Assembly: GCA_038251725.1 (NCBI GenBank)
Contig: JBBSBA010000006.1
Coordinates: 4,308-68,307 of the forward strand
Direction of reading: 5' to 3'
Source: Actinomycetales bacterium
Lineage (GTDB): Bacteria; Actinomycetota; Actinomycetes; Actinomycetales; Microbacteriaceae
Length of the DNA stretch: 64,000 nt
The notes below the pieces were generated by a model. That model did not search any database. It saw nothing but the letters and a program-made list of their open reading frames with translations, and was not told the DNA's origin. A program made the position numbers and the translations under genes. Of the stretch, positions 52,623 through 60,371 are shown piece after piece; position 1 is the stretch's first letter, and each line of letters opens with the position of its first letter.

Positions 52623-53501
52623 TCAGCGCAGGGCTGTCGTCGCGCGATCGCGACCGAGGAGATCCGGATGCGTCGCGATGGCACGCCAGCCGTCGGCGCG
52701 CAGCAGGGCGGCGATGTCGGCGGCCTGAAGCTCGCCGTGCTCGAGCACGAACGTGCCGCCCGGATGCAGCAGCCGCCGTGCCGTGCGGGAGACCAGACGC
52801 ACGACATCCAGTCCGTCGTCGCCGCCGTAGAGCGCGTGCTCCGGGTCGAACAGGCGCACCTCGGGGTCGCGCGGGATCGCCCCGGCCGGAATGTAGGGCG
52901 GGTTCGAGATGACGACCGCGACGGTGCCGTCGAGTTCGGGCAGCGCCTCAGCGAGGTCGATGAAGACGGCGCGAGCGTTCTCGGCGCCGCTTTCGCGGAA
53001 GTTCCGACGGGTCCAGGGAAAGGCATCCGGAGAGTTCTCCACGCCGATGACGCGCGCGTGCGGCACCTCGGTGGCCATCGCGAGGGCGATCGCGCCGCTT
53101 CCGGTGCCGAGGTCGACACCGATCGGCTCTGGGGTGGCCGCCGAGCGGAGGGCGTCAATGGCGAACTGGGCAACCTGCTCGGTTTCGGGGCGCGGCACGA
53201 ACACCCCGGGGCCGACGGCGAGTTCGAGCGAGCGGAATGGTGCACGGCCGGTGATGTGCTGGAGCGGTTCGCGCGCCGCGCGCCGGTCGACGAGGGCCGA
53301 GATGGTGGCGGCGTCGTCCGTCGACACCGTCGTGTCGGTGATCGCCTTCGCCTGCACCTGACCCCGGCTCAGGTCGAGCACGAAGCCGATGAGCAGTTCG
53401 GCGTCCGCGTCGGGCGACGCGACGCCCGCACGGGCGAGAAGTTCGGTGGCACCCGACAGCAGGTCGCGGATCGAGCGCAGGGAGGGATCCACTGGCAGCA
53501 C
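52623..53501 (-). CDS. prmC: Release factor glutamine methyltransferase
   Basis: REPLQHI, VFVPRPETE, DLGTGSG, SNPPY. Confidence 0.96.
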   Translation of the reverse strand: MLPVDPSLRSIRDLLSGATELLARAGVASPDADAELLIGFVLDLSRGQVQAKAITDTTVSTDDAATISALVDRRAAREPLQHITGRAPFRSLELAVGPGVFVPRPETEQVAQFAIDALRSAATPEPIGVDLGTGSGAIALAMATEVPHARVIGVENSPDAFPWTRRNFRESGAENARAVFIDLAEALPELDGTVAVVISNPPYIPAGAIPRDPEVRLFDPEHALYGGDDGLDVVRLVSRTARRLLHPGGTFVLEHGELQAADIAALLRADGWRAIATHPDLLGRDRATTALR

Positions 53502-53503
53502 GG

Positions 53504-54589
53504 TCAGGAGGCGTCGGTTTCGCCGAGCATGGCGAGTCTTGCCTCTTCATCCGCCTCGATATCGCTCTGGATCACGGCATCGAGCGCGCCGTTCATCACG
53601 GCCTCGAGGTTGTAGGCCTTGTAGCCGGTGCGGTGGTCGGCGATGCGATTCTCGGGGAAGTTGTACGTGCGGATGCGCTCTGACCGGTCCATCGTGCGGA
53701 TCTGGCTCTTGCGCACGACGGAAGCCGCGGCGTCGATCTCCTCCTGCTGACGCGCGAGCACGCGGGCGCGCAACACGCGCATGCCGGCCTCACGGTTCTG
53801 CAGCTGGCTCTTCTCGTTCTGCATCGCCACCACGATCCCGGTGGGGAGGTGGGTGATGCGAACGGCGGAGTCGGTGGTGTTCACCGACTGGCCGCCGGGG
53901 CCGCTCGAGCGATAGACGTCGATCTTGAGATCGTTCTGGCTGATCTCCACCTCTTCAGGCTCATCCACCTCGGGAAAGACGAGCACGCCGGCCGCCGAGG
54001 TGTGGATTCGACCCTGCGACTCGGTGGCCGGCACACGCTGCACGCGGTGCACACCGCCCTCGTACTTGAGGTGCGCCCAGACGCCCTCCGCGGGGTCGCT
54101 GGAGTTGCCCTTGATGGCGAGCTGGACATCCTTGATGCCGCCGAGGTCGCTCGAGGTCTGCTCGATGATCTCGGTCTTCCACTTCTTGGACTCCGCGTAG
54201 TGCAGGTACATGCGCAGGAGGTCGCCGGCGAAGAGCGCGGACTCGGCCCCGCCCTCCCCCATCTTGATCTCCATGATCACATCGCGACCGTCGTTCTCGT
54301 CGCGCGGGATGAGCAGCCGGCGCAGGCGCTCCTCCATCACCTCGAGTGCGGCCTTGATCTTCGGCAGTTCCTCGGCGAACGACTCGTCTTCCGCCGCCAT
54401 CTCGCGTGCGGCTTCGAAGTCATCGGTGAGTTTCAGCCAACGGTTGTAGGCGTCCACGATTCGACTGAGCTCGGCGTAACGCCGATTGACCTTCTTTGAC
54501 TTGGCCGGGTTGGAGTGGAGTTCCGGATCGGCGAGCTGCTCCTGAAGATCCGCATGCTCGGCCAGCAAAGTCTTCACTGACTCGAACAT
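53504..54589 (-). CDS. prfA: Peptide chain release factor 1
   Basis: GGQ in [27 protein letters not shown]. Confidence 0.97.
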
Positions 54590-54592
54590 GGG

Positions 54593-56812
54593 TTAGCCCT
54601 CTTTGGTACTCGATGCGCCCGGAAGCGACTTCTGGATCTTCATGAGGAACTCGACGTTGCTCGACGTGTCCTTGAGCTGCGTGAGAACGAGCTCGAGGGC
54701 CTGCTGGGTCTCGAGACTGGCGAGAGCGCGGCGGAGCTTCCAGTTGACCTTGGTCTCGTCGACGCCCATGAGCATCTCTTCGCGACGGGTTCCGGACGCG
54801 TTCACGTCGACCGCGGGGAAGATGCGCTTGTCGGCCAGCTGGCGTGACAGGCGGAGCTCCATGTTGCCGGTGCCCTTGAACTCCTCGAAGATGACCTCGT
54901 CCATCTTGGACCCGGTCTCGACGAGCGCCGTGGCGAGGATCGTGAGCGATCCACCGTCCTCGATGTTGCGAGCCGCTCCGAAGAAGCGCTTCGGCGGGTA
55001 GAGGGCCGACGAGTCGACGCCTCCGGAGAGGATGCGACCCGATGCCGGCGCGGTGAGGTTGTAGGCGCGACCGAGGCGCGTGATCGAGTCGAGCAGCACG
55101 ACGACGTCGTGACCCAGCTCGACGAGGCGCTTCGCGCGCTCGATGGCGAGTTCGGCGACCGTGGTGTGGTCTTCGGCCGGACGGTCGAAGGTGGAGGCGA
55201 TGACCTCACCCTTCACCGTGCGCTGCATGTCGGTGACCTCTTCTGGTCGCTCGTCGACGAGAACGACCATGAGGTGGACCTCGGGGTTGTTCTTGGCGAT
55301 CGCGTTCGCAATGGCCTGGAGCACGAGCGTCTTGCCTGCCTTGGGCGGTGAGACGATCAGGCCACGCTGGCCCTTGCCGATCGGCGACACGAGGTCGATG
55401 ATGCGGGTCGTGAGCTTGCCCGACTCGGTCTCGAGGCGCAGGCGCTCCGAGGGGTAGAGCGGGGTGAGCTTGCCGAACTCGACGCGGTCCGCGGCCTGAT
55501 CGACGGGAAGACCGTTGATCGAGTCGATCTTGACGATGGCGTTGTACTTCTGGCGACCGGAGTTGTCGTTCTCCCGCGGCTGGCGGATCGCTCCGACGAC
55601 GGCGTCGCCCTTGCGCAGGTTGTACTTCTTGACCTGGCCGAGCGAGACGTAGACGTCGTTGTTGCCCGGCAGATAGCCGCTGGTGCGAACGAAGGCATAG
55701 TTGTCGAGCACGTCGAGGATGCCGGCCACCGGGATGAGCACGTCATCCTCGGTGATCTCGGGCTCGAAATCATCGTTGCCACCGGCGCCGCGACGCTTGC
55801 GGTCGCGGTAGCGGTTGCGGCCGCTGCGGTCGCCGTCGTCCTCGAGCGACTGCTGCTGGCGGTCATTCCCCTGCTGGCGGTCATTACCCTGCTGGCGGGC
55901 GTTGCCGCCCTGCTGGCGCTCCGCCTGATTCTGCTGGTTGCGGTTGTTGGAATTGCGACCATTGGCGCGCTGGCCATCGTTCTGCTCGGCGTTCTGCGCG
56001 TTTTGGTTCTGCGCACCCTGGTTCTGCGCACCCTGGTTCTGACTGCCGTCGTTCTGCTGGCGGTCGCCACGGTTGCGGTTGCGGTTGCGCGAGTTCCTGG
56101 TCGGCTGGACGTCGTCGGCCACAGCCTCGGCCTCGGCCTCCTGACCGGGAATGCGGTCAAGGCCTTCGGTCTTCTTCGAGTCCGCAACGGCGGCGCGCTC
56201 AGCCTCCTGGCCGGGAATCCGGTCGAGCCCCGCACTCAGCGCGGCGTCGGCCAGCGCGATGCGCTCGGCCTCCTGGCCGGGGATGCGGTCGAGACCCGCG
56301 GTCTGGTTCGAGTCCGCAACGGCGGCGCGCTCGGCCTCCTGGCCGGGAATCCGGTCGAGGCCGTGCTGCGCACGGTTCGCGTGGTCGGTCACCGACTTCG
56401 GCTCAGCCTTGGCTGCGGCACGGGTCGTGGCCGGGCGCCGCGGTTCGCGCTGCGTCGACTCGATGAGGGGCGCTTCCACGGCTCCGGCATCCACGATCGC
56501 GGTGCTCGCTCGACGCGATGCGCGCTTCTTCACCACCGGGGCCGCGGCGGCCTCGGCGGATGCGGCATCCGGTGCGACGACGGACGTCTCGGAGGCCGCG
56601 GGAGCCTCGGCGACGGACGCGTCGGTAGCGGGTGTGCCGGGGGTTTCGGCGCTGTTCTGGATCTCGGAAATTGCATCCACGAGCTCTCCTTTACGAAGTT
56701 TGGACGAGCCACTGAGGCCGAGTTCGGCCGCGAGAGCCTGAAGCTCTGGGAGGCGAAGTTTGGCAAGGGCGGTTGAGTCCGGGCGAGTGGCACGGACAGT
56801 GAGGTCAGTCAC
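54593..56812 (-). CDS. rho: Transcription termination factor Rho with a large N-terminal insertion
   Basis: GKGQRGLIVSPPKAGKT, LVDERPEEVTD, LLDSITRL, FKGTGNME; start probably GTG 56812 (SD GAAAGGAA). Confidence 0.98.
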   Translation of the reverse strand: MTDLTVRATRPDSTALAKLRLPELQALAAELGLSGSSKLRKGELVDAISEIQNSAETPGTPATDASVAEAPAASETSVVAPDAASAEAAAAPVVKKRASRRASTAIVDAGAVEAPLIESTQREPRRPATTRAAAKAEPKSVTDHANRAQHGLDRIPGQEAERAAVADSNQTAGLDRIPGQEAERIALADAALSAGLDRIPGQEAERAAVADSKKTEGLDRIPGQEAEAEAVADDVQPTRNSRNRNRNRGDRQQNDGSQNQGAQNQGAQNQNAQNAEQNDGQRANGRNSNNRNQQNQAERQQGGNARQQGNDRQQGNDRQQQSLEDDGDRSGRNRYRDRKRRGAGGNDDFEPEITEDDVLIPVAGILDVLDNYAFVRTSGYLPGNNDVYVSLGQVKKYNLRKGDAVVGAIRQPRENDNSGRQKYNAIVKIDSINGLPVDQAADRVEFGKLTPLYPSERLRLETESGKLTTRIIDLVSPIGKGQRGLIVSPPKAGKTLVLQAIANAIAKNNPEVHLMVVLVDERPEEVTDMQRTVKGEVIASTFDRPAEDHTTVAELAIERAKRLVELGHDVVVLLDSITRLGRAYNLTAPASGRILSGGVDSSALYPPKRFFGAARNIEDGGSLTILATALVETGSKMDEVIFEEFKGTGNMELRLSRQLADKRIFPAVDVNASGTRREEMLMGVDETKVNWKLRRALASLETQQALELVLTQLKDTSSNVEFLMKIQKSLPGASSTKEG
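56114..56362 (-). repeat. Four 66-bp (22-aa) tandem repeats in the Rho insertion
   Basis: GLDRIPGQEAE cores at 56330-56362, 56264-56296, 56198-56230 and 56132-56164. Confidence 0.95.
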
Positions 56813-57004
56813 TAAGAGGGTTCCTTTCCCCTCGCAAGTTCCGCACCTGACAGGCACGACTGAATCTTGCGGGAGAGCTAGACGTTCGGTGCTTTCGCTG
56901 CGGGTAGCCCAGATGCGAATTCACGCAACTGCGCGGTGAAACAAGCGTTGTTCACGAAAACAGGGAAGCGATTGCTGGTGATTATGCGTTTCCGGGGCTT
57001 TCGA

Positions 57005-57973
57005 CTATGCCGAGTTATCTACCGGGTGCATTGTCACTGTAGCACCTTTGAAGTCCACAGCCAGCAGCAGCGACTGCCACGGCGAGCCGTGGCGCGCGGC
57101 CACCAGATCGGCCGCAAGCAGACGCTGGGCCGGGTCGCTGCACAGCACGAGGATCGAGGGACCGGCGCCCGAGACCACCGCCGGCAGCCCGTGGGACCGC
57201 AGTTCGAGGATGAGCGATTCGGTCTCCGGCATCGCCGCCGCACGGTAGCTCTGGTGCAGCTTGTCCTCGGTGGCCGCGAGCAGCAGTTCCGGACTCTGGA
57301 TGAGGGCGGCGATGAGCAGCGCGGAACGCGAGACGTTGAAGATCGCGTCCTCGTGGGGAACGGATACCGGACGAAGGCTTCGCGCGAGCTCGGTCGACAT
57401 GGTCGACTCTGGCACCGCGATGAGCGGTGAGACGCCGCGGTGCACGATCAGCTTCTTGTGCTGCGGTCCGGCATCCGTCGTCCAGGCGATGGTGAGGCCG
57501 CCGAAGAGCGCGGGCGCCACGTTGTCGGGGTGCCCCTCGAGGGCGGTCGCGAGCGCGAGAAGGGTGTTGGAATCGATGTCGACGATGCCGTCAAGCAGTC
57601 CCTTGGCCGCCATGATTCCCGAGACGATTGCCGCGCCGGATGACCCGAGCCCTCGCCCGTGCGGGATGTCGTTGCGGGCCACGAGGTCCAACCCCGGAAG
57701 CGGCTGGCCGAAGTGGGCGAACGTGTACGCGATGGTCGTGACGACGAGATTGGACTCGTCGGTCGGCACCTCCCCCTCGCCGACGCCGATCACCTCGACC
57801 GTCGCGCCCGGGGCATCCCGAACCGTCACCGTGAGCTCGTCGTAGAGCGACAGCGCGAGGCCGAGCGTGTCGAAGCCTGGCCCGAGGTTGGCCGTGGTCG
57901 CCGGAACGCGCACAGTCACCGAGCGGCCCGCAAACTGGGCGAGCGTGCCCGCGGGAGTCTCTACTGCGTTCAC
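57005..57973 (-). CDS. thrB: Homoserine kinase
   Basis: PATTANLGPGFD, PHGRGLGSSGAA, EGHPDN, SGAGP; GTG start overlaps the thrC stop. Confidence 0.96.
   Translation of the reverse strand: MNAVETPAGTLAQFAGRSVTVRVPATTANLGPGFDTLGLALSLYDELTVTVRDAPGATVEVIGVGEGEVPTDESNLVVTTIAYTFAHFGQPLPGLDLVARNDIPHGRGLGSSGAAIVSGIMAAKGLLDGIVDIDSNTLLALATALEGHPDNVAPALFGGLTIAWTTDAGPQHKKLIVHRGVSPLIAVPESTMSTELARSLRPVSVPHEDAIFNVSRSALLIAALIQSPELLLAATEDKLHQSYRAAAMPETESLILELRSHGLPAVVSGAGPSILVLCSDPAQRLLAADLVAARHGSPWQSLLLAVDFKGATVTMHPVDNSA
57036..57044 (-). promoter_or_regulatory. Extended -10 element (TGcTACAGT) for rho, inside the thrB 3' end
   Basis: Matches TGnTAnnnT; implies a ~215-nt leader before GTG 56812. Confidence 0.55.
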
Positions 57974-59052
57974 ACCGATGCTTTGGAGAGGCCGAGGACC
58001 CCGGCCACCTCGTCCGTGTCGTTCGCGACGACGGTGGGGGTGATCTCCGAGCCGTCCGCCGTGCGGAGCGCCCACTGCGGGTCCTTGAGGCCGTGGCCGG
58101 TGACGGTGAGCACCACCGTCGATCCCTTCGGGATCTGTCCGGCCTCCGCGCGCTCGAGCAGTCCGGCGACGCTGATCGCCGAGGCGGGTTCGACGAAGAT
58201 GCCGACCTCGGCCGACAGCATCCGATAGGCCTCGAGGATGTGCGGGTCGGAAATGGCCCCGAAGTAGCCGTCGGTGAGCTCGCGCGCGGTGATGGCGGGT
58301 TCCCACGAGGCGGGGTTTCCGATGCGGATGGCGCTCGCGATGGTGTCGGGGTTCTTGACGACGTGGCCGAGCACGATCGGCGCGCTGCCCGCGGCCTGGA
58401 AGCCGAACATTCGCGGCAGCTTCGTTGTGGTCCCGCGGGCCAGGTCTTCGGCGTAGCCGCGCGAATAGGCCGTGTAGTTGCCGGCATTGCCGACCGGCAC
58501 GATGTGGATGTCGGGCGCGTCTCCCAGCACCTCGACGACCTCGAAGGCCGCCGTCTTCTGCCCCTCGATGCGGTCGTTGTTGACCGAGTTCACCAGGTGC
58601 ACGGGGTAGTTCGCGGCGAGGTCGCGCGCGATGTCGAGACAGTCGTCGAAATTGCCCTGGATCTGCAGCAGCTCCGCGTTGTGGGCGATCGCCTGGGCGA
58701 GCTTGCCGAGCGCGATCTTGCCCTCCGGAACGAGCACGGCGGCCTTGATGCCCGCGTGGGTCGCGTACGCCGCGGCCGATGCCGAGGTATTGCCGGTCGA
58801 GGCGCAGATGACCGCCTTCGCGCCGGCCTCGACGGCCTTCGAGACGGCCATCGTCATGCCGCGGTCCTTGAACGAACCGGTGGGGTTCATTCCCTCGTAC
58901 TTGACCCAGACGTGTGCTCCCGTGCGTGCGGACAGCGCGGGGGCCGGGATGAGCGGCGTGCCGCCCTCCCCGAGGGTCACGATCGGCGTGGCATCCGAAA
59001 TGTCAAGACGGTCTGCGTACTCGCGGAGGACTCCGCGCCACTGGTGGGCCAT
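57970..59052 (-). CDS. thrC: Threonine synthase
   Basis: EGMNPTGSFKDRG, ASTGNT, PVGNAGN, EPASA. Confidence 0.97.
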   Translation of the reverse strand: MAHQWRGVLREYADRLDISDATPIVTLGEGGTPLIPAPALSARTGAHVWVKYEGMNPTGSFKDRGMTMAVSKAVEAGAKAVICASTGNTSASAAAYATHAGIKAAVLVPEGKIALGKLAQAIAHNAELLQIQGNFDDCLDIARDLAANYPVHLVNSVNNDRIEGQKTAAFEVVEVLGDAPDIHIVPVGNAGNYTAYSRGYAEDLARGTTTKLPRMFGFQAAGSAPIVLGHVVKNPDTIASAIRIGNPASWEPAITARELTDGYFGAISDPHILEAYRMLSAEVGIFVEPASAISVAGLLERAEAGQIPKGSTVVLTVTGHGLKDPQWALRTADGSEITPTVVANDTDEVAGVLGLSKASV

Positions 59053-60371
59053 TATGAACCTTCTACTCTCAATACGGACGTGACCTGGCGCACGACCCCG
59101 CTCGATTCGAGCTGATGGACGGTCGCCGCCAGATCGGCTTCGGATGCCTGGTGGGTGCCAATGACAAGGGTAGCCGTGGGCACAGCGACGGTCGTCTCAT
59201 TGGCGACCGATTGCGTAACGGTCTCCACCGAGACGCCGTGCTCGCTGAACAGCGTGGCGACCGCGGCGAGGACTCCCGGCTGGTCGACGACGCTGAGCGT
59301 GATCTGGTACCGGGTGATCACCCGGGAGATCGGCAGGATCGGCAGGTTCGCATGGGTGGATTCCGCCACGCCCGGGCCGCCGATCACGTGACGGCGAGCC
59401 GCCGACACCAGGTCGCCGAGCACGGCGGAGGCGGTCTCGATGCCGCCGGCTCCCGCACCATAGAACATGAGGTCGCCGGCCGCCTCGGCCTCGATGAACA
59501 CCGCGTTCTTGGCACCATGGACAGCTGCGAGGGGATGATCGCGCGGCACGAGCGCGGGGTAGACGCGGGCCGACACGCCGTCGACTCCGTCGACGTCGGT
59601 GAGTCGCTCGCAGATGGCGAGCAGCTTGATCACATAGCCGGCCGTGCGAGCGGCATCCACCTGCGCGGGGGTGATACCGGTGATTCCCTCGCGGTACACC
59701 GCATCGAGCGGGACCCTGGTGTGGAAGGCGAGGCTGGCGAGAATCGCGGTCTTCTGGGCGGCGTCGTAGCCCTCGATGTCGGCCGACGGGTCGGACTTCT
59801 CGGCGTAGCCGAGTTCGGTCGCGGTGGCGAGCGCGTCCTCGAGGGACTCCCCCGCGGTGTCCATGCGGTCGAGGATGAAGTTTGTCGTGCCGTTGACGAT
59901 GCCGAGGATGCGCTTGATCCGGTCCCCGGCGAGGCTGTCGCGCAGCGGACGGATGATCGGGATCGCACCAGCGACGGCCGCCTCGTAGTACAGCTGGGCA
60001 CCCACCTGCTCCGCCGCCTCGAACAGCTCGAGACCGTGGGTCGCGAGCAGCGCCTTGTTGCCGGTGATCACATCCGCACCGGAGTTGAGAGCCTGGAGGA
60101 TGAGCGTGCGGGCCGGCTCGAGGCCGCCCATCAGCTCGATCACGATGTCGGCGCCGAGGATGAGCGCCTCCGCATCGGTGGTGAGCAGTTCCTTCGGGAT
60201 CTCGGTGCTGCGCGGCGCGTCGATGTCGCGCACCGCGACGCCCACGAGCTCGAGGCCGGCTCCCGCGCGGTTCGCGAGCTCCGGTCCGTGCTCGATCAGC
60301 AACGACGCCACCTGGGCGCCGACAGATCCGGCGCCCAGCAGTGCAACTCTGAGGTTGCGGTACTCGATCAT
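59052..60371 (-). CDS. hom: Homoserine dehydrogenase with C-terminal ACT domain
   Basis: LGAGSVG, EAAVAGAIP, NGTTNFIL, DIEGYDAAQK. Confidence 0.97.
   Translation of the reverse strand: MIEYRNLRVALLGAGSVGAQVASLLIEHGPELANRAGAGLELVGVAVRDIDAPRSTEIPKELLTTDAEALILGADIVIELMGGLEPARTLILQALNSGADVITGNKALLATHGLELFEAAEQVGAQLYYEAAVAGAIPIIRPLRDSLAGDRIKRILGIVNGTTNFILDRMDTAGESLEDALATATELGYAEKSDPSADIEGYDAAQKTAILASLAFHTRVPLDAVYREGITGITPAQVDAARTAGYVIKLLAICERLTDVDGVDGVSARVYPALVPRDHPLAAVHGAKNAVFIEAEAAGDLMFYGAGAGGIETASAVLGDLVSAARRHVIGGPGVAESTHANLPILPISRVITRYQITLSVVDQPGVLAAVATLFSEHGVSVETVTQSVANETTVAVPTATLVIGTHQASEADLAATVHQLESSGVVRQVTSVLRVEGS

What the first reader, a model, noticed from the sequence alone, without database searches (positions are those of the whole stretch)
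55850..56095. Prion-like Q/N-rich segment in Rho
82 consecutive residues contain 20 Asn and 23 Gln (52%, hand count), with QNQGA and RQQGND micro-repeats. Asn enrichment is striking in a high-GC genome. Established: Clostridium botulinum Rho has a prion-forming domain and Bacteroides thetaiotaomicron Rho forms condensates through a disordered region. Actinobacterial Rho insertions are known but typically described as Arg/Asp/Gly-rich. Interspersed Arg and Asp may favour condensates over amyloid.
Basis: partly seen in the sequence, partly recalled or inferred. Interest (0 to 1): 0.66.

Follow-up and report, generated by a model that had tools for sequence, protein, structure and literature searches.

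The report
Gln/Asn-rich disordered tract in Rho
The transcription terminator Rho of this high-GC soil or ice actinobacterium carries a real, genus-conserved, disordered stretch that is half glutamine and asparagine. It is a strong example of an already described module of actinobacterial Rho insertions, and it looks better suited to RNA capture and reversible condensation than to forming a heritable prion.

Summary
Window 55850-56095 (minus strand) encodes 82 residues of Rho with 23 Gln and 20 Asn (52%). It contains in-frame 15-nt and 18-nt micro-repeats and no hydrophobic or aromatic residue. It is the only Q/N-rich domain in the 2.9-Mb genome (42 Q/N per 80 aa; the runner-up has 18).

The tract lies in the roughly 310-aa insertion between Rho_N and the RNA-binding domain. 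AlphaFold2 and FoldIndex predict that insertion to be disordered.

All 22 same-genus orthologues that could be delimited keep the tract:
- composition is constant (Q, N, G, R, D, A, S, E make up 95%; net charge is about +0.03);
- length (61-123 aa) and sequence turn over quickly (43-67% identity against 97-99.5% in the core).

The motif order TDL / A-P-rich / RxR / QN-NDQG repeats / RxR / EDDV matches published descriptions of Actinomycetota and mycobacterial Rho. In those proteins the insertion drives RNA selection and RNA-modulated phase separation.

My approximate PAPA score is below threshold everywhere. The longest uncharged run is not conserved across the genus. No ortholog's best 21-residue stretch reaches the score of the C. 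botulinum Rho amyloid core.

Verdict: a new member of a known kind. A condensate or RNA-binding disordered region is the most likely reading, and a prion is unlikely but not excluded. Interest is modest.

The parts
54593..56812 (-). rho gene. Probable true start is GTG at 56812 (VTDLTVRA...), giving 739 aa. The stop codon is at 54593-54595. The longest ORF extends upstream to a GTG at 56857 (754 aa).
   Evidence: ORF list. Pfam Rho_N, Rho_RNA_bind and ATP-synt_ab. Shine-Dalgarno-like GGGGAAAGGAA lies 8 nt upstream of the 56812 GTG. Database homologues start V/MTDLTVRA. Best PDB match is 7OQH, MtbRho, E 4.6e-193.
56657..56767 (-). Rho_N helix bundle (ORF residues 31-67).
   Evidence: Pfam PF07498, E 4.6e-08. 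AF2 pLDDT 82-96 with helices.
56363..56656 (-). Ala/Pro/Thr/Ser-rich first part of the insertion, corresponding to the published 'APA' region (ORF residues 68-165).
   Evidence: Sequence. AF2 pLDDT about 30-35 and no secondary structure. APA motif at the start of insertion regions is described in PMC11347177.
56114..56362 (-). Four tandem 22-aa GLDRIPGQEAE(R)xAxAD repeats. They are specific to this genus and its near relatives and lie immediately upstream of the Q/N tract.
   Evidence: TRF period 66, 3.5 copies, 74% matches. Present with variable copy number in same-genus orthologues, and none of the 55 delimited inserts from named actinobacteria matches the motif. Every protein retrieved with insert region 150-345, which holds these repeats and the Q/N tract, is a Rho.
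56069..56098 (-). First Arg cluster, RNSRNRNRNR ('RxR' motif). This is the conserved N-terminal anchor of the tract.
   Evidence: Conserved in all 22 delimited genus orthologues. TRF 6-nt x3.3.
55850..56095 (-). The Q/N-rich tract of the finding (ORF residues 255-336): 82 aa, Q23 N20 R12 G10 A7 D5 S3 E2.
55988..56047 (-). Longest uncharged run in the tract, GSQNQGAQNQGAQNQNAQNA (ORF residues 271-290). This is the only candidate amyloid-core-like stretch.
   Evidence: The equivalent run ranges from 5 to 36 aa across genus orthologues, so it is not conserved. Its PAPA-like value is below that of the published Cb-Rho core peptide.
55790..55828 (-). Second Arg cluster, RSGRNRYRDRKRR ('RxR' motif). 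This is the conserved C-terminal anchor.
   Evidence: Conserved across the genus, and as RRGRxRxRxRG in the alignment consensus across Actinomycetota. It aligns with RRGRRFRDRRRRG of MtbRho.
55724..55768 (-). FEPEITEDDVLIPVA: the 'EDDV' motif that closes the insertion next to the RNA-binding domain.
   Evidence: D356, D357, V358 and P361 (739-aa numbering) are invariant in alignment A1. The motif is described as Actinomycetota-specific in PMC11347177.
55502..55729 (-). Rho RNA-binding (CSD-like) domain.
   Evidence: Pfam PF07497, E 5.7e-25. AF2 pLDDT 74-84 with beta strands.
54794..55408 (-). RecA-type ATPase domain.
   Evidence: Pfam PF00006, E 2.3e-25. 97-99.5% identical from the RNA-binding domain to the C-terminus in near relatives.

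Best explanation
[quoted passage not shown] The organism is a Microbacteriaceae, and its nearest named relatives are Glaciihabitans and Lacisediminihabitans.

The tract sits between two conserved arginine clusters, just upstream of the EDDV motif and the RNA-binding domain. On the hexamer, six copies would therefore surround the primary RNA-binding sites.

Proposed mechanism (inferred):
- It is a soluble, nearly charge-neutral, Arg-studded polar chain without hydrophobic or aromatic residues.
- It stays disordered and adds many weak, multivalent contacts to nascent RNA: Arg to phosphate and bases, Gln and Asn by hydrogen bonding.
- This would widen the choice of Rut sites on structured, GC-rich transcripts.
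- With RNA or under stress, it could promote reversible condensation of Rho.

Selection appears to act on composition and charge balance, not on sequence. The tract grows and shrinks by in-frame slippage of 3- to 18-nt units.

Shown here: the anatomy, predicted disorder, uniqueness in the proteome, conservation of composition with fast sequence turnover, and sub-threshold amyloid/prion propensity.
Inferred by analogy: RNA binding and condensation.
For: 1. Position and motif order. VTDL start, Rho_N, A/P-rich region, RNSRNRNRNR, Q/N with RQQGND repeats, RNRYRDRKRR, EITEDDV, then the RNA-binding domain. This equals the APA-QN-RxR-EDDV pattern of Actinomycetota Rho (PMC11347177). It also equals the TDL / RxR / NDQG-repeat / RxR / EDDV pattern of mycobacterial Rho (bioRxiv 10.1101/2025.08.28.672908). 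HMMER aligns the tract and the second Arg cluster to the NID of MtbRho (7OQH).

2. Disorder. AF2 gives pLDDT below 50 and no secondary structure for residues 57-332, while the flanking domains are confident. FoldIndex is -0.66 for the tract.

3. Physicochemistry. 0 of 82 residues are hydrophobic or aromatic. 23% are charged, net charge per residue is +0.06, and charges are well mixed (kappa 0.21 against 0.24 +/- 0.07 for shuffles).

4. Selection on bulk properties. In the 22 genus orthologues that could be delimited:
- length is 61-123 aa, Q+N fraction 0.34-0.57, net charge per residue only +0.02 to +0.05;
- pooled composition is 95% Q/N/G/R/D/A/S/E;
- K, H, Y and I are each about 0.1%, although each is one nucleotide change from CAG or AAC;
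- tract identity to near relatives is 43-67% with 12-31 gap columns, against 97-99.5% from the RNA-binding domain to the C-terminus.

5. Experimental precedents in the same protein family:
- the MtbRho NID is disordered by NMR and cryo-EM and is needed for 1759 versus 47 Rut sites (PMC13650167);
- M. luteus and Mtb inserts raise RNA affinity (PMC8828861);
- mycobacterial Rho disordered regions form RNA-modulated droplets in vitro, and in vivo under acid stress;
- B. thetaiotaomicron Rho phase-separates.

6. Every protein retrieved with the region holding the tract and the adjacent repeats is a Rho (133 of 133 hits), and it is the only Q/N-rich domain in the genome.
Against: - No experiment exists on this protein or on any Microbacteriaceae Rho. 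RNA binding and condensation are inferred by analogy.
- The mycobacterial insertions shown to phase-separate are biased towards T/R/G/D/L, not Q/N. The B. thetaiotaomicron insertion differs too: an E/K-rich plus a Q/N-rich region.
- Without aromatic 'stickers', homotypic phase separation may be weak.
- No dedicated phase-separation predictor (FuzDrop, PSPredictor) could be run.
- The AF2 model is shallow (28 sequences, pTM 0.30), and low pLDDT is only a proxy for disorder.
- The two-fold length variation could equally mean the tract is a tolerated spacer.
Confidence: 0.68

Rival explanations
1. The tract is a true prion-forming domain of the C. botulinum Rho type. It would switch Rho into a self-propagating amyloid state that lowers termination genome-wide and is inherited epigenetically.
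For: - It is 52% Q/N with 42 Q/N per 80 aa, well above the classical 30 per 80 census criterion, and it is disordered.
- It contains a 20-aa uncharged Q/N/G/A run. Some congeners have 26-36-aa uncharged Q/N runs.
- It sits in the same place in Rho as the Cb-Rho PrD.
- Some QN-motif Rho insertions are PLAAC-positive (PMC11347177).
- Purely polar N-rich peptides can form amyloid that standard predictors miss (PMC4703818).
Against: - The PAPA-style score is -0.13 or lower in the insertion, against a threshold of 0.05. Every single 41-aa window of the tract scores -0.08 or lower. The propensity scale was recalled from memory, so this is qualitative.
- The tract has 23% charged residues, about one every 4 residues, and no aromatic or aliphatic residue.
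- The best 21-mers of all 22 orthologues score -0.16 to +0.05. The published 21-residue Cb-Rho core, which is uncharged, 67% Asn and has 2 Phe, scores 0.165.
- The longest uncharged run varies from 5 to 36 aa, and 6 of 22 species have 9 or fewer. A core is therefore not conserved, while charge balance is.
- B. fragilis Rho, which has a QN motif, did not aggregate under the conditions tested.
Confidence: 0.1
2. The tract is a largely neutral low-complexity spacer. Replication slippage of CAG/AAC/CGC/GAC/GGC-rich units inflates a permissive linker, and the only constraint is that it stays soluble and in frame. It would add no specific function beyond separating Rho_N from the RNA-binding domain.
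For: - Near-perfect 15- and 18-nt tandem units in the DNA.
- Two-fold length range in the genus.
- 3- and 6-aa indels between near-identical metagenomic Rho proteins (P0025 vs P0035, P0078 vs P0094).
- 43-67% tract identity next to a 97-99.5% identical core.
- Other families of the order have differently biased inserts, Q-rich or R/D/E/G-rich.
Against: - The tract is retained in all 22 delimited congeners and in near relatives, with a narrow net charge (+0.02 to +0.05).
- K, H, Y and I are almost completely excluded, although each is one mutation away from the main codons.
- The flanking Arg clusters and EDDV are strongly conserved.
- No other protein in the genome has drifted into such a tract.
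- Deleting NIDs in M. tuberculosis, and altering them in other species, changes Rho function.
Confidence: 0.2

Closest known systems
Actinomycetota 'Type 2' Rho insertion region with the APA-QN-RxR-EDDV motif order (Moreira et al. 2024, NAR, PMC11347177)
   Same: - The insertion lies between Rho_N and the RNA-binding domain.
- It starts A/P-rich, has a central QN motif, has Arg clusters, and ends in EDDV next to the RNA-binding domain.
- It is predicted to be disordered.
All of these were seen here.
   Different: - The QN module is unusually dense here: 42 Q/N per 80 aa, and up to 49 in congeners. Most of the 55 sampled insertions from named actinobacteria have 10-30.
- Gln and Asn are roughly equal, rather than mostly Gln.
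- A 22-aa GLDRIPGQEAE repeat array, not seen outside this genus and its near relatives, is inserted before it.
Mycobacterial Rho insertion (TDL / RxR / NDQG repeats / RxR / EDDV). It is shown to be disordered, to govern Rut selection (PMC13650167), and to phase-separate with RNA and under acid stress (bioRxiv 10.1101/2025.08.28.672908).
   Same: - Same motif order, and the same position of short polar repeats containing N, D, Q and G between two Arg clusters.
- HMMER aligns the two regions.
- The ATPase core is the closest solved structure (7OQH).
   Different: - The mycobacterial bias is T/R/G/D/L, and the regions are shorter (insertion of 107-268 aa).
- Here Q+N reach 52%.
- This Rho keeps Leu at the MtbRho M495 position (PMC8828861).
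- There are no experiments on this lineage.
Clostridium botulinum Rho prion-forming domain (Pallares et al. 2016, PMC4703818; Yuan & Hochschild 2017, as cited)
   Same: A Q/N-rich, disordered segment in the Rho N-terminal insertion, about 80 residues long.
   Different: - The Cb domain passes PAPA. It has an uncharged 21-residue core that is 67% Asn and contains Phe.
- This tract fails my PAPA-style score, has a charge about every 4 residues, has no aromatic residue, and has no conserved core.
- The lineages are unrelated and the origin is independent.
Bacteroides thetaiotaomicron Rho disordered region (Krypotou et al. 2023, as summarised in PMC10284900 and PMC11347177)
   Same: A roughly 300-aa disordered insertion that contains a Q/N-rich region. 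Condensation is a plausible shared behaviour.
   Different: - The B. thetaiotaomicron insertion combines an E/K-rich and a Q/N-rich region around a small conserved element.
- This tract has no Lys and instead mixes Arg and Asp.
- The phylum is different and the origin is independent.

Membership tests
Rho transcription termination factor | Rho_N, CSD-like Rho RNA-binding domain and RecA-type ATPase, in that order. | tested here: met
   Pfam PF07498 (31-67), PF07497 (377-452) and PF00006 (484-688), all above the gathering cut-offs. PDB 7OQH at E 4.6e-193, and E. coli Rho 1PV4 at E 3.2e-128.
Actinomycetota Type 2 Rho insertion (APA-QN-RxR-EDDV; PMC11347177) | A long insertion between Rho_N and the RNA-binding domain. 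| tested here: met
   About 310 aa lie between Pfam Rho_N (ends at 67) and Rho_RNA_bind (starts at 377).
Actinomycetota Type 2 Rho insertion (APA-QN-RxR-EDDV; PMC11347177) | Motif order: A/P-rich start, central QN, RxR clusters, and EDDV directly before the RNA-binding domain. | tested here: met
   Read directly from the sequence. EDDV residues are invariant in alignment A1. The published MEME models themselves were not run.
Actinomycetota Type 2 Rho insertion (APA-QN-RxR-EDDV; PMC11347177) | Predicted intrinsic disorder of the insertion. | tested here: met
   AF2 pLDDT below 50 and no secondary structure for residues 57-332. FoldIndex is -0.18 for the insertion and -0.66 for the tract.
Q/N-rich prion-like domain (compositional definition) | 30 or more Q/N in 80 consecutive residues, or a strong N/Q bias within a disordered region. 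| tested here: met
   42 of 80. Binomial P is 7e-22 at a 10% background, far below the 1e-10 fLPS threshold used in PMC6400439. This is my binomial calculation, not fLPS itself.
Prion-forming domain of the C. botulinum Rho / yeast type | PAPA prion propensity above 0.05 within a FoldIndex-negative region. | tested here: not met
   My re-implementation gives a maximum of -0.13 in the insertion and -0.08 for any 41-aa window of the tract. All 22 orthologues stay below 0.05. The propensity values were recalled from memory (Toombs et al. 2010), so the original program should be run to confirm.
Prion-forming domain of the C. botulinum Rho / yeast type | An embedded ~21-residue amyloid core (pWALTZ), uncharged and N-rich. 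| tested here: inconclusive
   pWALTZ was not available. As a proxy, the best 21-mers score -0.16 to +0.05 against 0.165 for the published Cb-Rho core. The longest uncharged run is 20 aa here but 5-36 aa across the genus, so it is not conserved.
Prion-forming domain of the C. botulinum Rho / yeast type | PLAAC HMM call (positive core score or LLR). | not tested
   PLAAC was not available and I do not hold its parameters. By its design a 52% Q/N plus 12% Gly segment is expected to score positive (inference).
Prion-forming domain of the C. botulinum Rho / yeast type | Self-propagating amyloid state shown experimentally. | not testable with these tools
   Needs SDD-AGE, ThT, C-DAG or Sup35-fusion assays.
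Phase-separating Rho (B. thetaiotaomicron, mycobacteria) | Insertion-dependent droplet formation in vitro or in vivo. | not testable with these tools
   Only the precedents are documented. No phase-separation predictor was available.

The most novel reading that the evidence does not exclude
The genus has evolved a two-part switch in Rho. The aromatic-free Q/N-Arg-Asp tract, whose uncharged QN core reaches 26-36 residues in some congeners, could nucleate a slow, self-templating assembly (a true bacterial prion or gel state) in a high-GC actinobacterium. The adjacent GLDRIPGQEAE repeat array could act as a multivalent docking site that gates this assembly. The result would be heritable or stress-locked changes in genome-wide termination. 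It would be the first natural-host prion-like Rho outside Firmicutes.
Probability: 0.08. Interest if true: 0.65.

Novelty: new member of a known kind. Interest (0 to 1): 0.3.

Why it matters
Rho insertions are one of the clearest bacterial cases where a disordered, low-complexity region retunes an essential global regulator.

This lineage offers an extreme natural variant of the actinobacterial QN module:
- half Gln and Asn;
- no aromatic residue and no Lys;
- tightly balanced Arg and Asp;
- large natural variation in length and in uncharged-run length among close relatives whose cores are more than 97% identical.

That natural series could be used to test which sequence features (Q/N density, charge spacing, uncharged run length) move a Rho disordered region between soluble RNA tether, liquid condensate and amyloid. 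It does not reveal a new kind of system.

Tried and rejected
- **Chance or wrong frame:** rejected. The tract is unique in a six-frame scan of the genome, the frame is supported by GC3 and by flanking Pfam domains, and all repeat periods are multiples of three.
- **Foreign or compositionally deviant DNA:** rejected. Tract GC is 65% against 67% for the genome.
- **A domain shared with other proteins:** rejected. All 133 database hits to insert region 150-345, which holds the tract, are Rho.
- **Structured RNA in the rho leader or tract:** Rfam found nothing in 53000-59500 at E up to 0.1.
- **Naming the genus:** only partly achieved. The nearest named proteins are from Glaciihabitans spp. and a Lacisediminihabitans MAG.
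- **Supplements of PMC6400439:** searched for Microbacteriaceae Rho among annotated prion-like proteins. There were no hits; only the Clostridium ortholog file matched.
- **Papers not held in the library:** Yuan & Hochschild 2017 (PMC5460984) and Krypotou 2023 (PMC10148683). I relied on how open papers summarise them.
- **PLAAC, pWALTZ, FuzDrop:** not available. PAPA was re-implemented from remembered propensities and is used only qualitatively.
- **The 5-aa length steps (701 to 721 aa) among near-identical metagenomic Rho proteins:** I first suspected the Q/N tract, but they lie in the A/P-rich (PVADA)n region.
Full report

Yes, to the residue. The longest ORF over the region is on the minus strand, 54593..56857. 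Window 55850-56095 maps to its residues 255-336. That is 82 residues with Q23, N20, R12, G10, A7, D5, S3 and E2, so 52.4% Q+N.

- an 18-nt unit x2.6 at 96% matches (RQQGND);
- a 15-nt unit x2.5 at 100% (QNQGA);
- a 6-nt unit x3.3 (RNRNRN).
All are in-frame periods.

The tract contains no hydrophobic or aromatic residue. The longest stretch of the protein free of F/Y/W/I/L/V/M/C is 87 residues, 251-337.

It is far beyond chance. The binomial tail is 9e-36 against the crude proteome Q+N frequency of 4.5%. In a six-frame scan of all 19,143 open frames of at least 80 aa in the 2.9-Mb genome, Rho reaches 42 Q/N in 80 residues and the runner-up reaches 18. It is the only Q/N-rich domain this organism encodes.

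The DNA is not compositionally foreign: 65% GC against 67% for the genome, and GC3 of 0.84 in the Rho frame.

**2. What gene, and where in it?**

Pfam finds Rho_N (31-67), Rho_RNA_bind (377-452) and the RecA-type ATPase (484-688). The best solved relative is M. tuberculosis Rho, 7OQH, at E 4.6e-193. No second rho gene turned up in the genome; the two other matches are weak, about 25-27% identity over the ATPase part only.

The real start is probably GTG at 56812. A GGGGAAAGGAA Shine-Dalgarno-like sequence lies 8 nt upstream, and database homologues begin V/MTDLTVRA. That gives a 739-aa protein.

The tract lies in a roughly 310-aa insertion between Rho_N and the RNA-binding domain. Read from the N-terminus, the insertion contains:
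- an Ala/Pro/Thr-rich stretch;
- four 22-aa GLDRIPGQEAE repeats (TRF period 66);
- an Arg cluster, RNSRNRNRNR;
- the Q/N tract;
- a second Arg cluster, RNRYRDRKRR;
- FEPEITEDDVLIPVA, abutting the RNA-binding domain.

AlphaFold2, run with a 28-sequence alignment, gives pLDDT below 50 and no secondary structure for residues 57-332 (739-aa numbering). The helix bundle scores 82-96 and the RNA-binding domain 74-84. FoldIndex is -0.66 for the tract.

**3. Relatives**

All 41 genomes searched (this one plus 24 of the same genus and 16 from other families of the order) have Rho. In the 22 same-genus orthologues that I could delimit by the two Arg-cluster anchors, the tract is always present:

| Property | Range across 22 orthologues |
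|---|---|
| Length | 61-123 aa |
| Q+N fraction | 0.34-0.57 |
| Charged fraction | 0.20-0.39 |
| Net charge per residue | +0.02 to +0.05 |
| Longest uncharged run | 5-36 aa |

Pooled, eight residue types (Q, N, G, R, D, A, S, E) make up 95% of 1839 residues. K, H, Y and I are each about 0.1%, although each is one nucleotide change from the dominant CAG or AAC codons.

Against the nearest database relatives, the region from the RNA-binding domain to the C-terminus is 97-99.5% identical. The tract is only 43-67% identical, with 12-31 gap columns. Near-identical metagenomic proteins differ by 3- or 6-residue NQx indels inside the tract (P0025/P0035 and P0078/P0094).

So sequence and length turn over quickly by slippage, while composition and charge balance are held. 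This is the signature of a disordered region selected for bulk properties.

A search of 5.8 billion proteins with insert region 150-345, which holds the tract and the adjacent repeats, returned 133 hits, all of them Rho. The named ones come from Glaciihabitans spp., a Lacisediminihabitans MAG and Microbacteriaceae MAGs.

Elsewhere in Actinomycetota the same position is occupied by differently biased sequence:
- Frigoribacterium has 37 Q and 1 N per 80 residues.
- Curtobacterium has 31 Q and 8 N.
- One Rhodococcus has 16 Q and 18 N.
- Kocuria has 6 Q and 20 N.
- Micromonospora, Arthrobacter and Cellulomonas have R/D/E/G-rich inserts.

This genus is at the dense, Q-and-N-balanced end of a continuum. 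It is not a qualitative outlier.

**4. What is already known**

- Moreira et al. 2024 (PMC11347177) described four motifs in Rho additional regions. They state that Actinomycetota insertions show the pattern APA, QN, RxR, EDDV. [quoted passage not shown]
- Schumbera et al. 2023 list R, N, D and G as the biased residues of Rho disordered regions.
- Harrison 2019 counted N/Q-rich disordered Rho regions in 345 orthologues of 9 phyla.
- For mycobacteria, a 2025 preprint defines the order TDL / RxR / NDQG repeats / RxR / EDDV. It shows droplets that depend on the insertion and are modulated by RNA in vitro, and in vivo under acid stress.
- Do et al. 2026 show by NMR and cryo-EM that the MtbRho NID stays disordered even on RNA. 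They also show it is required for productive Rut selection: 1759 sites versus 47 without it.

The protein here has exactly that architecture, including the TDL start. HMMER aligns its tract and second Arg cluster to the MtbRho NID. The QN module has since been described.

**5. Prion or not?**

By composition the tract is prion-like: 42 of 80 residues are Q/N, and the bias P-value is 7e-22 at a 10% background.

By propensity it is not. My re-implementation of PAPA used the Toombs 2010 scale recalled from memory, so it is qualitative. It gives a maximum of -0.13 in the insertion and no more than -0.08 for any 41-aa window of the tract, against a threshold of +0.05. All 22 orthologues stay below threshold.

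The reasons are visible in the sequence:
- 23% of residues are charged, spaced about every four residues and well mixed (kappa 0.21);
- there are seven Ala;
- none of the hydrophobic or aromatic residues that promote prion formation is present.

As a yardstick I used the 21-residue amyloid core of the C. botulinum Rho domain as printed in PMC4703818. It is uncharged, 67% Asn, and has two Phe. It scores 0.165 on the same scale. The best 21-mers of the 22 orthologues score -0.16 to +0.05.

The only core-like element here is a 20-aa uncharged GSQNQGAQNQGAQNQNAQNA run. It is not conserved across the genus: the equivalent run ranges from 5 to 36 aa, and 6 of 22 species have 9 or fewer. B. fragilis Rho, which also has a QN motif, did not aggregate under the conditions tested.

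Amyloid formation by purely polar Q/N segments cannot be excluded by sequence alone. The congeners with 26-36-residue uncharged runs are the best candidates.

**6. Most likely mechanism**

The tract is a soluble, nearly neutral, Arg-studded polar chain displayed six times around the primary RNA-binding sites of the hexamer. It most plausibly forms a fuzzy, multivalent RNA-capturing corona, with Arg contacting phosphates and bases and Gln and Asn hydrogen-bonding. Such a corona would help Rho engage structured, GC-rich transcripts. It could also support RNA-dependent, stress-responsive condensation, as shown for mycobacterial and Bacteroides Rho.

Because the tract lacks aromatic stickers, I expect heterotypic condensation with RNA rather than homotypic condensation.

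The anatomy, disorder prediction, uniqueness, conservation pattern and sub-threshold prion propensity are shown here. RNA binding and condensation are inferred by analogy. My confidence in this reading is about 0.68. I put a tolerated spacer at about 0.2 and a true prion at about 0.1.

**7. Verdict**

This is a new member of a known kind: the QN module of actinobacterial Rho insertions, in an unusually dense, Q/N-balanced form.

It is of modest interest. A specialist would not be surprised. The natural series of closely related variants would, however, be a convenient system for testing what separates an RNA tether, a condensate and an amyloid in Rho disordered regions.

PLAAC, pWALTZ and FuzDrop were not available. 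Two key papers were not held in the library.

Noticed in passing
window 56114-56362 (minus strand): Four tandem 22-aa GLDRIPGQEAE(R)xAxAD repeats lie just upstream of the Q/N tract. Congeners carry 1 to 4 or more copies, including IDLIPGQEAE variants. The motif is absent from the 55 sampled inserts of other named actinobacteria, and all database hits to the region are Rho. AF2 gives them low confidence. They look like a multivalent short linear motif of unknown partner.
   Followed up: partly
window 56812-56857 (minus strand): The longest ORF starts at GTG 56857. The likely start is GTG 56812, which has GGGGAAAGGAA 8 nt upstream, and homologues begin V/MTDLTVRA. This 'TDL' start is the motif reported at the start of the initial regions of mycobacterial Rho. 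The amino-acid-like conservation upstream of it in some congeners is probably leader or SD nucleotide conservation.
   Followed up: partly
proteins P0035, P0038, P0036, P0030, P0040, equivalent to window ~56500-56650: Near-identical metagenomic Rho proteins of 701, 706, 711, 716 and 721 aa differ by whole (PVADA)-type 5-aa units in the Ala/Pro-rich start of the insertion. This is population-level repeat-number polymorphism in a second part of the disordered region.
   Followed up: partly
window ~54950-54976 (minus strand; motif ATALVETGS): This Rho keeps Leu at the position of MtbRho Met495 (E. coli Leu320). That residue is the determinant of bicyclomycin resistance in M. tuberculosis, so this Rho is predicted to be of the bicyclomycin-sensitive, faster-motor type.
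   Followed up: partly
window ~55570-55600 (minus strand; RQPRENDNSGRQKYN): The RNA-binding domain carries the small polar/basic 'RNP3' insertion ending in Lys. This insertion is reported for Actinomycetota Rho and is associated with RxR-containing insertions.
   Followed up: no
window 53504-59052: The gene order is thrC (57970-59052), thrB (about 57005-57950), rho, prfA (53504-54589), all on the minus strand. About 190 nt of leader lie between thrB and rho. No Rfam family matched this leader.
   Followed up: partly
G013:C68:44908-46515 and G013:C96:10460-11806: One same-genus genome (a 210-contig assembly with 3% estimated contamination) shows two Rho loci, each about 90% identical to the query. 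This could be a real duplication or two strains mixed in one bin.
   Followed up: no
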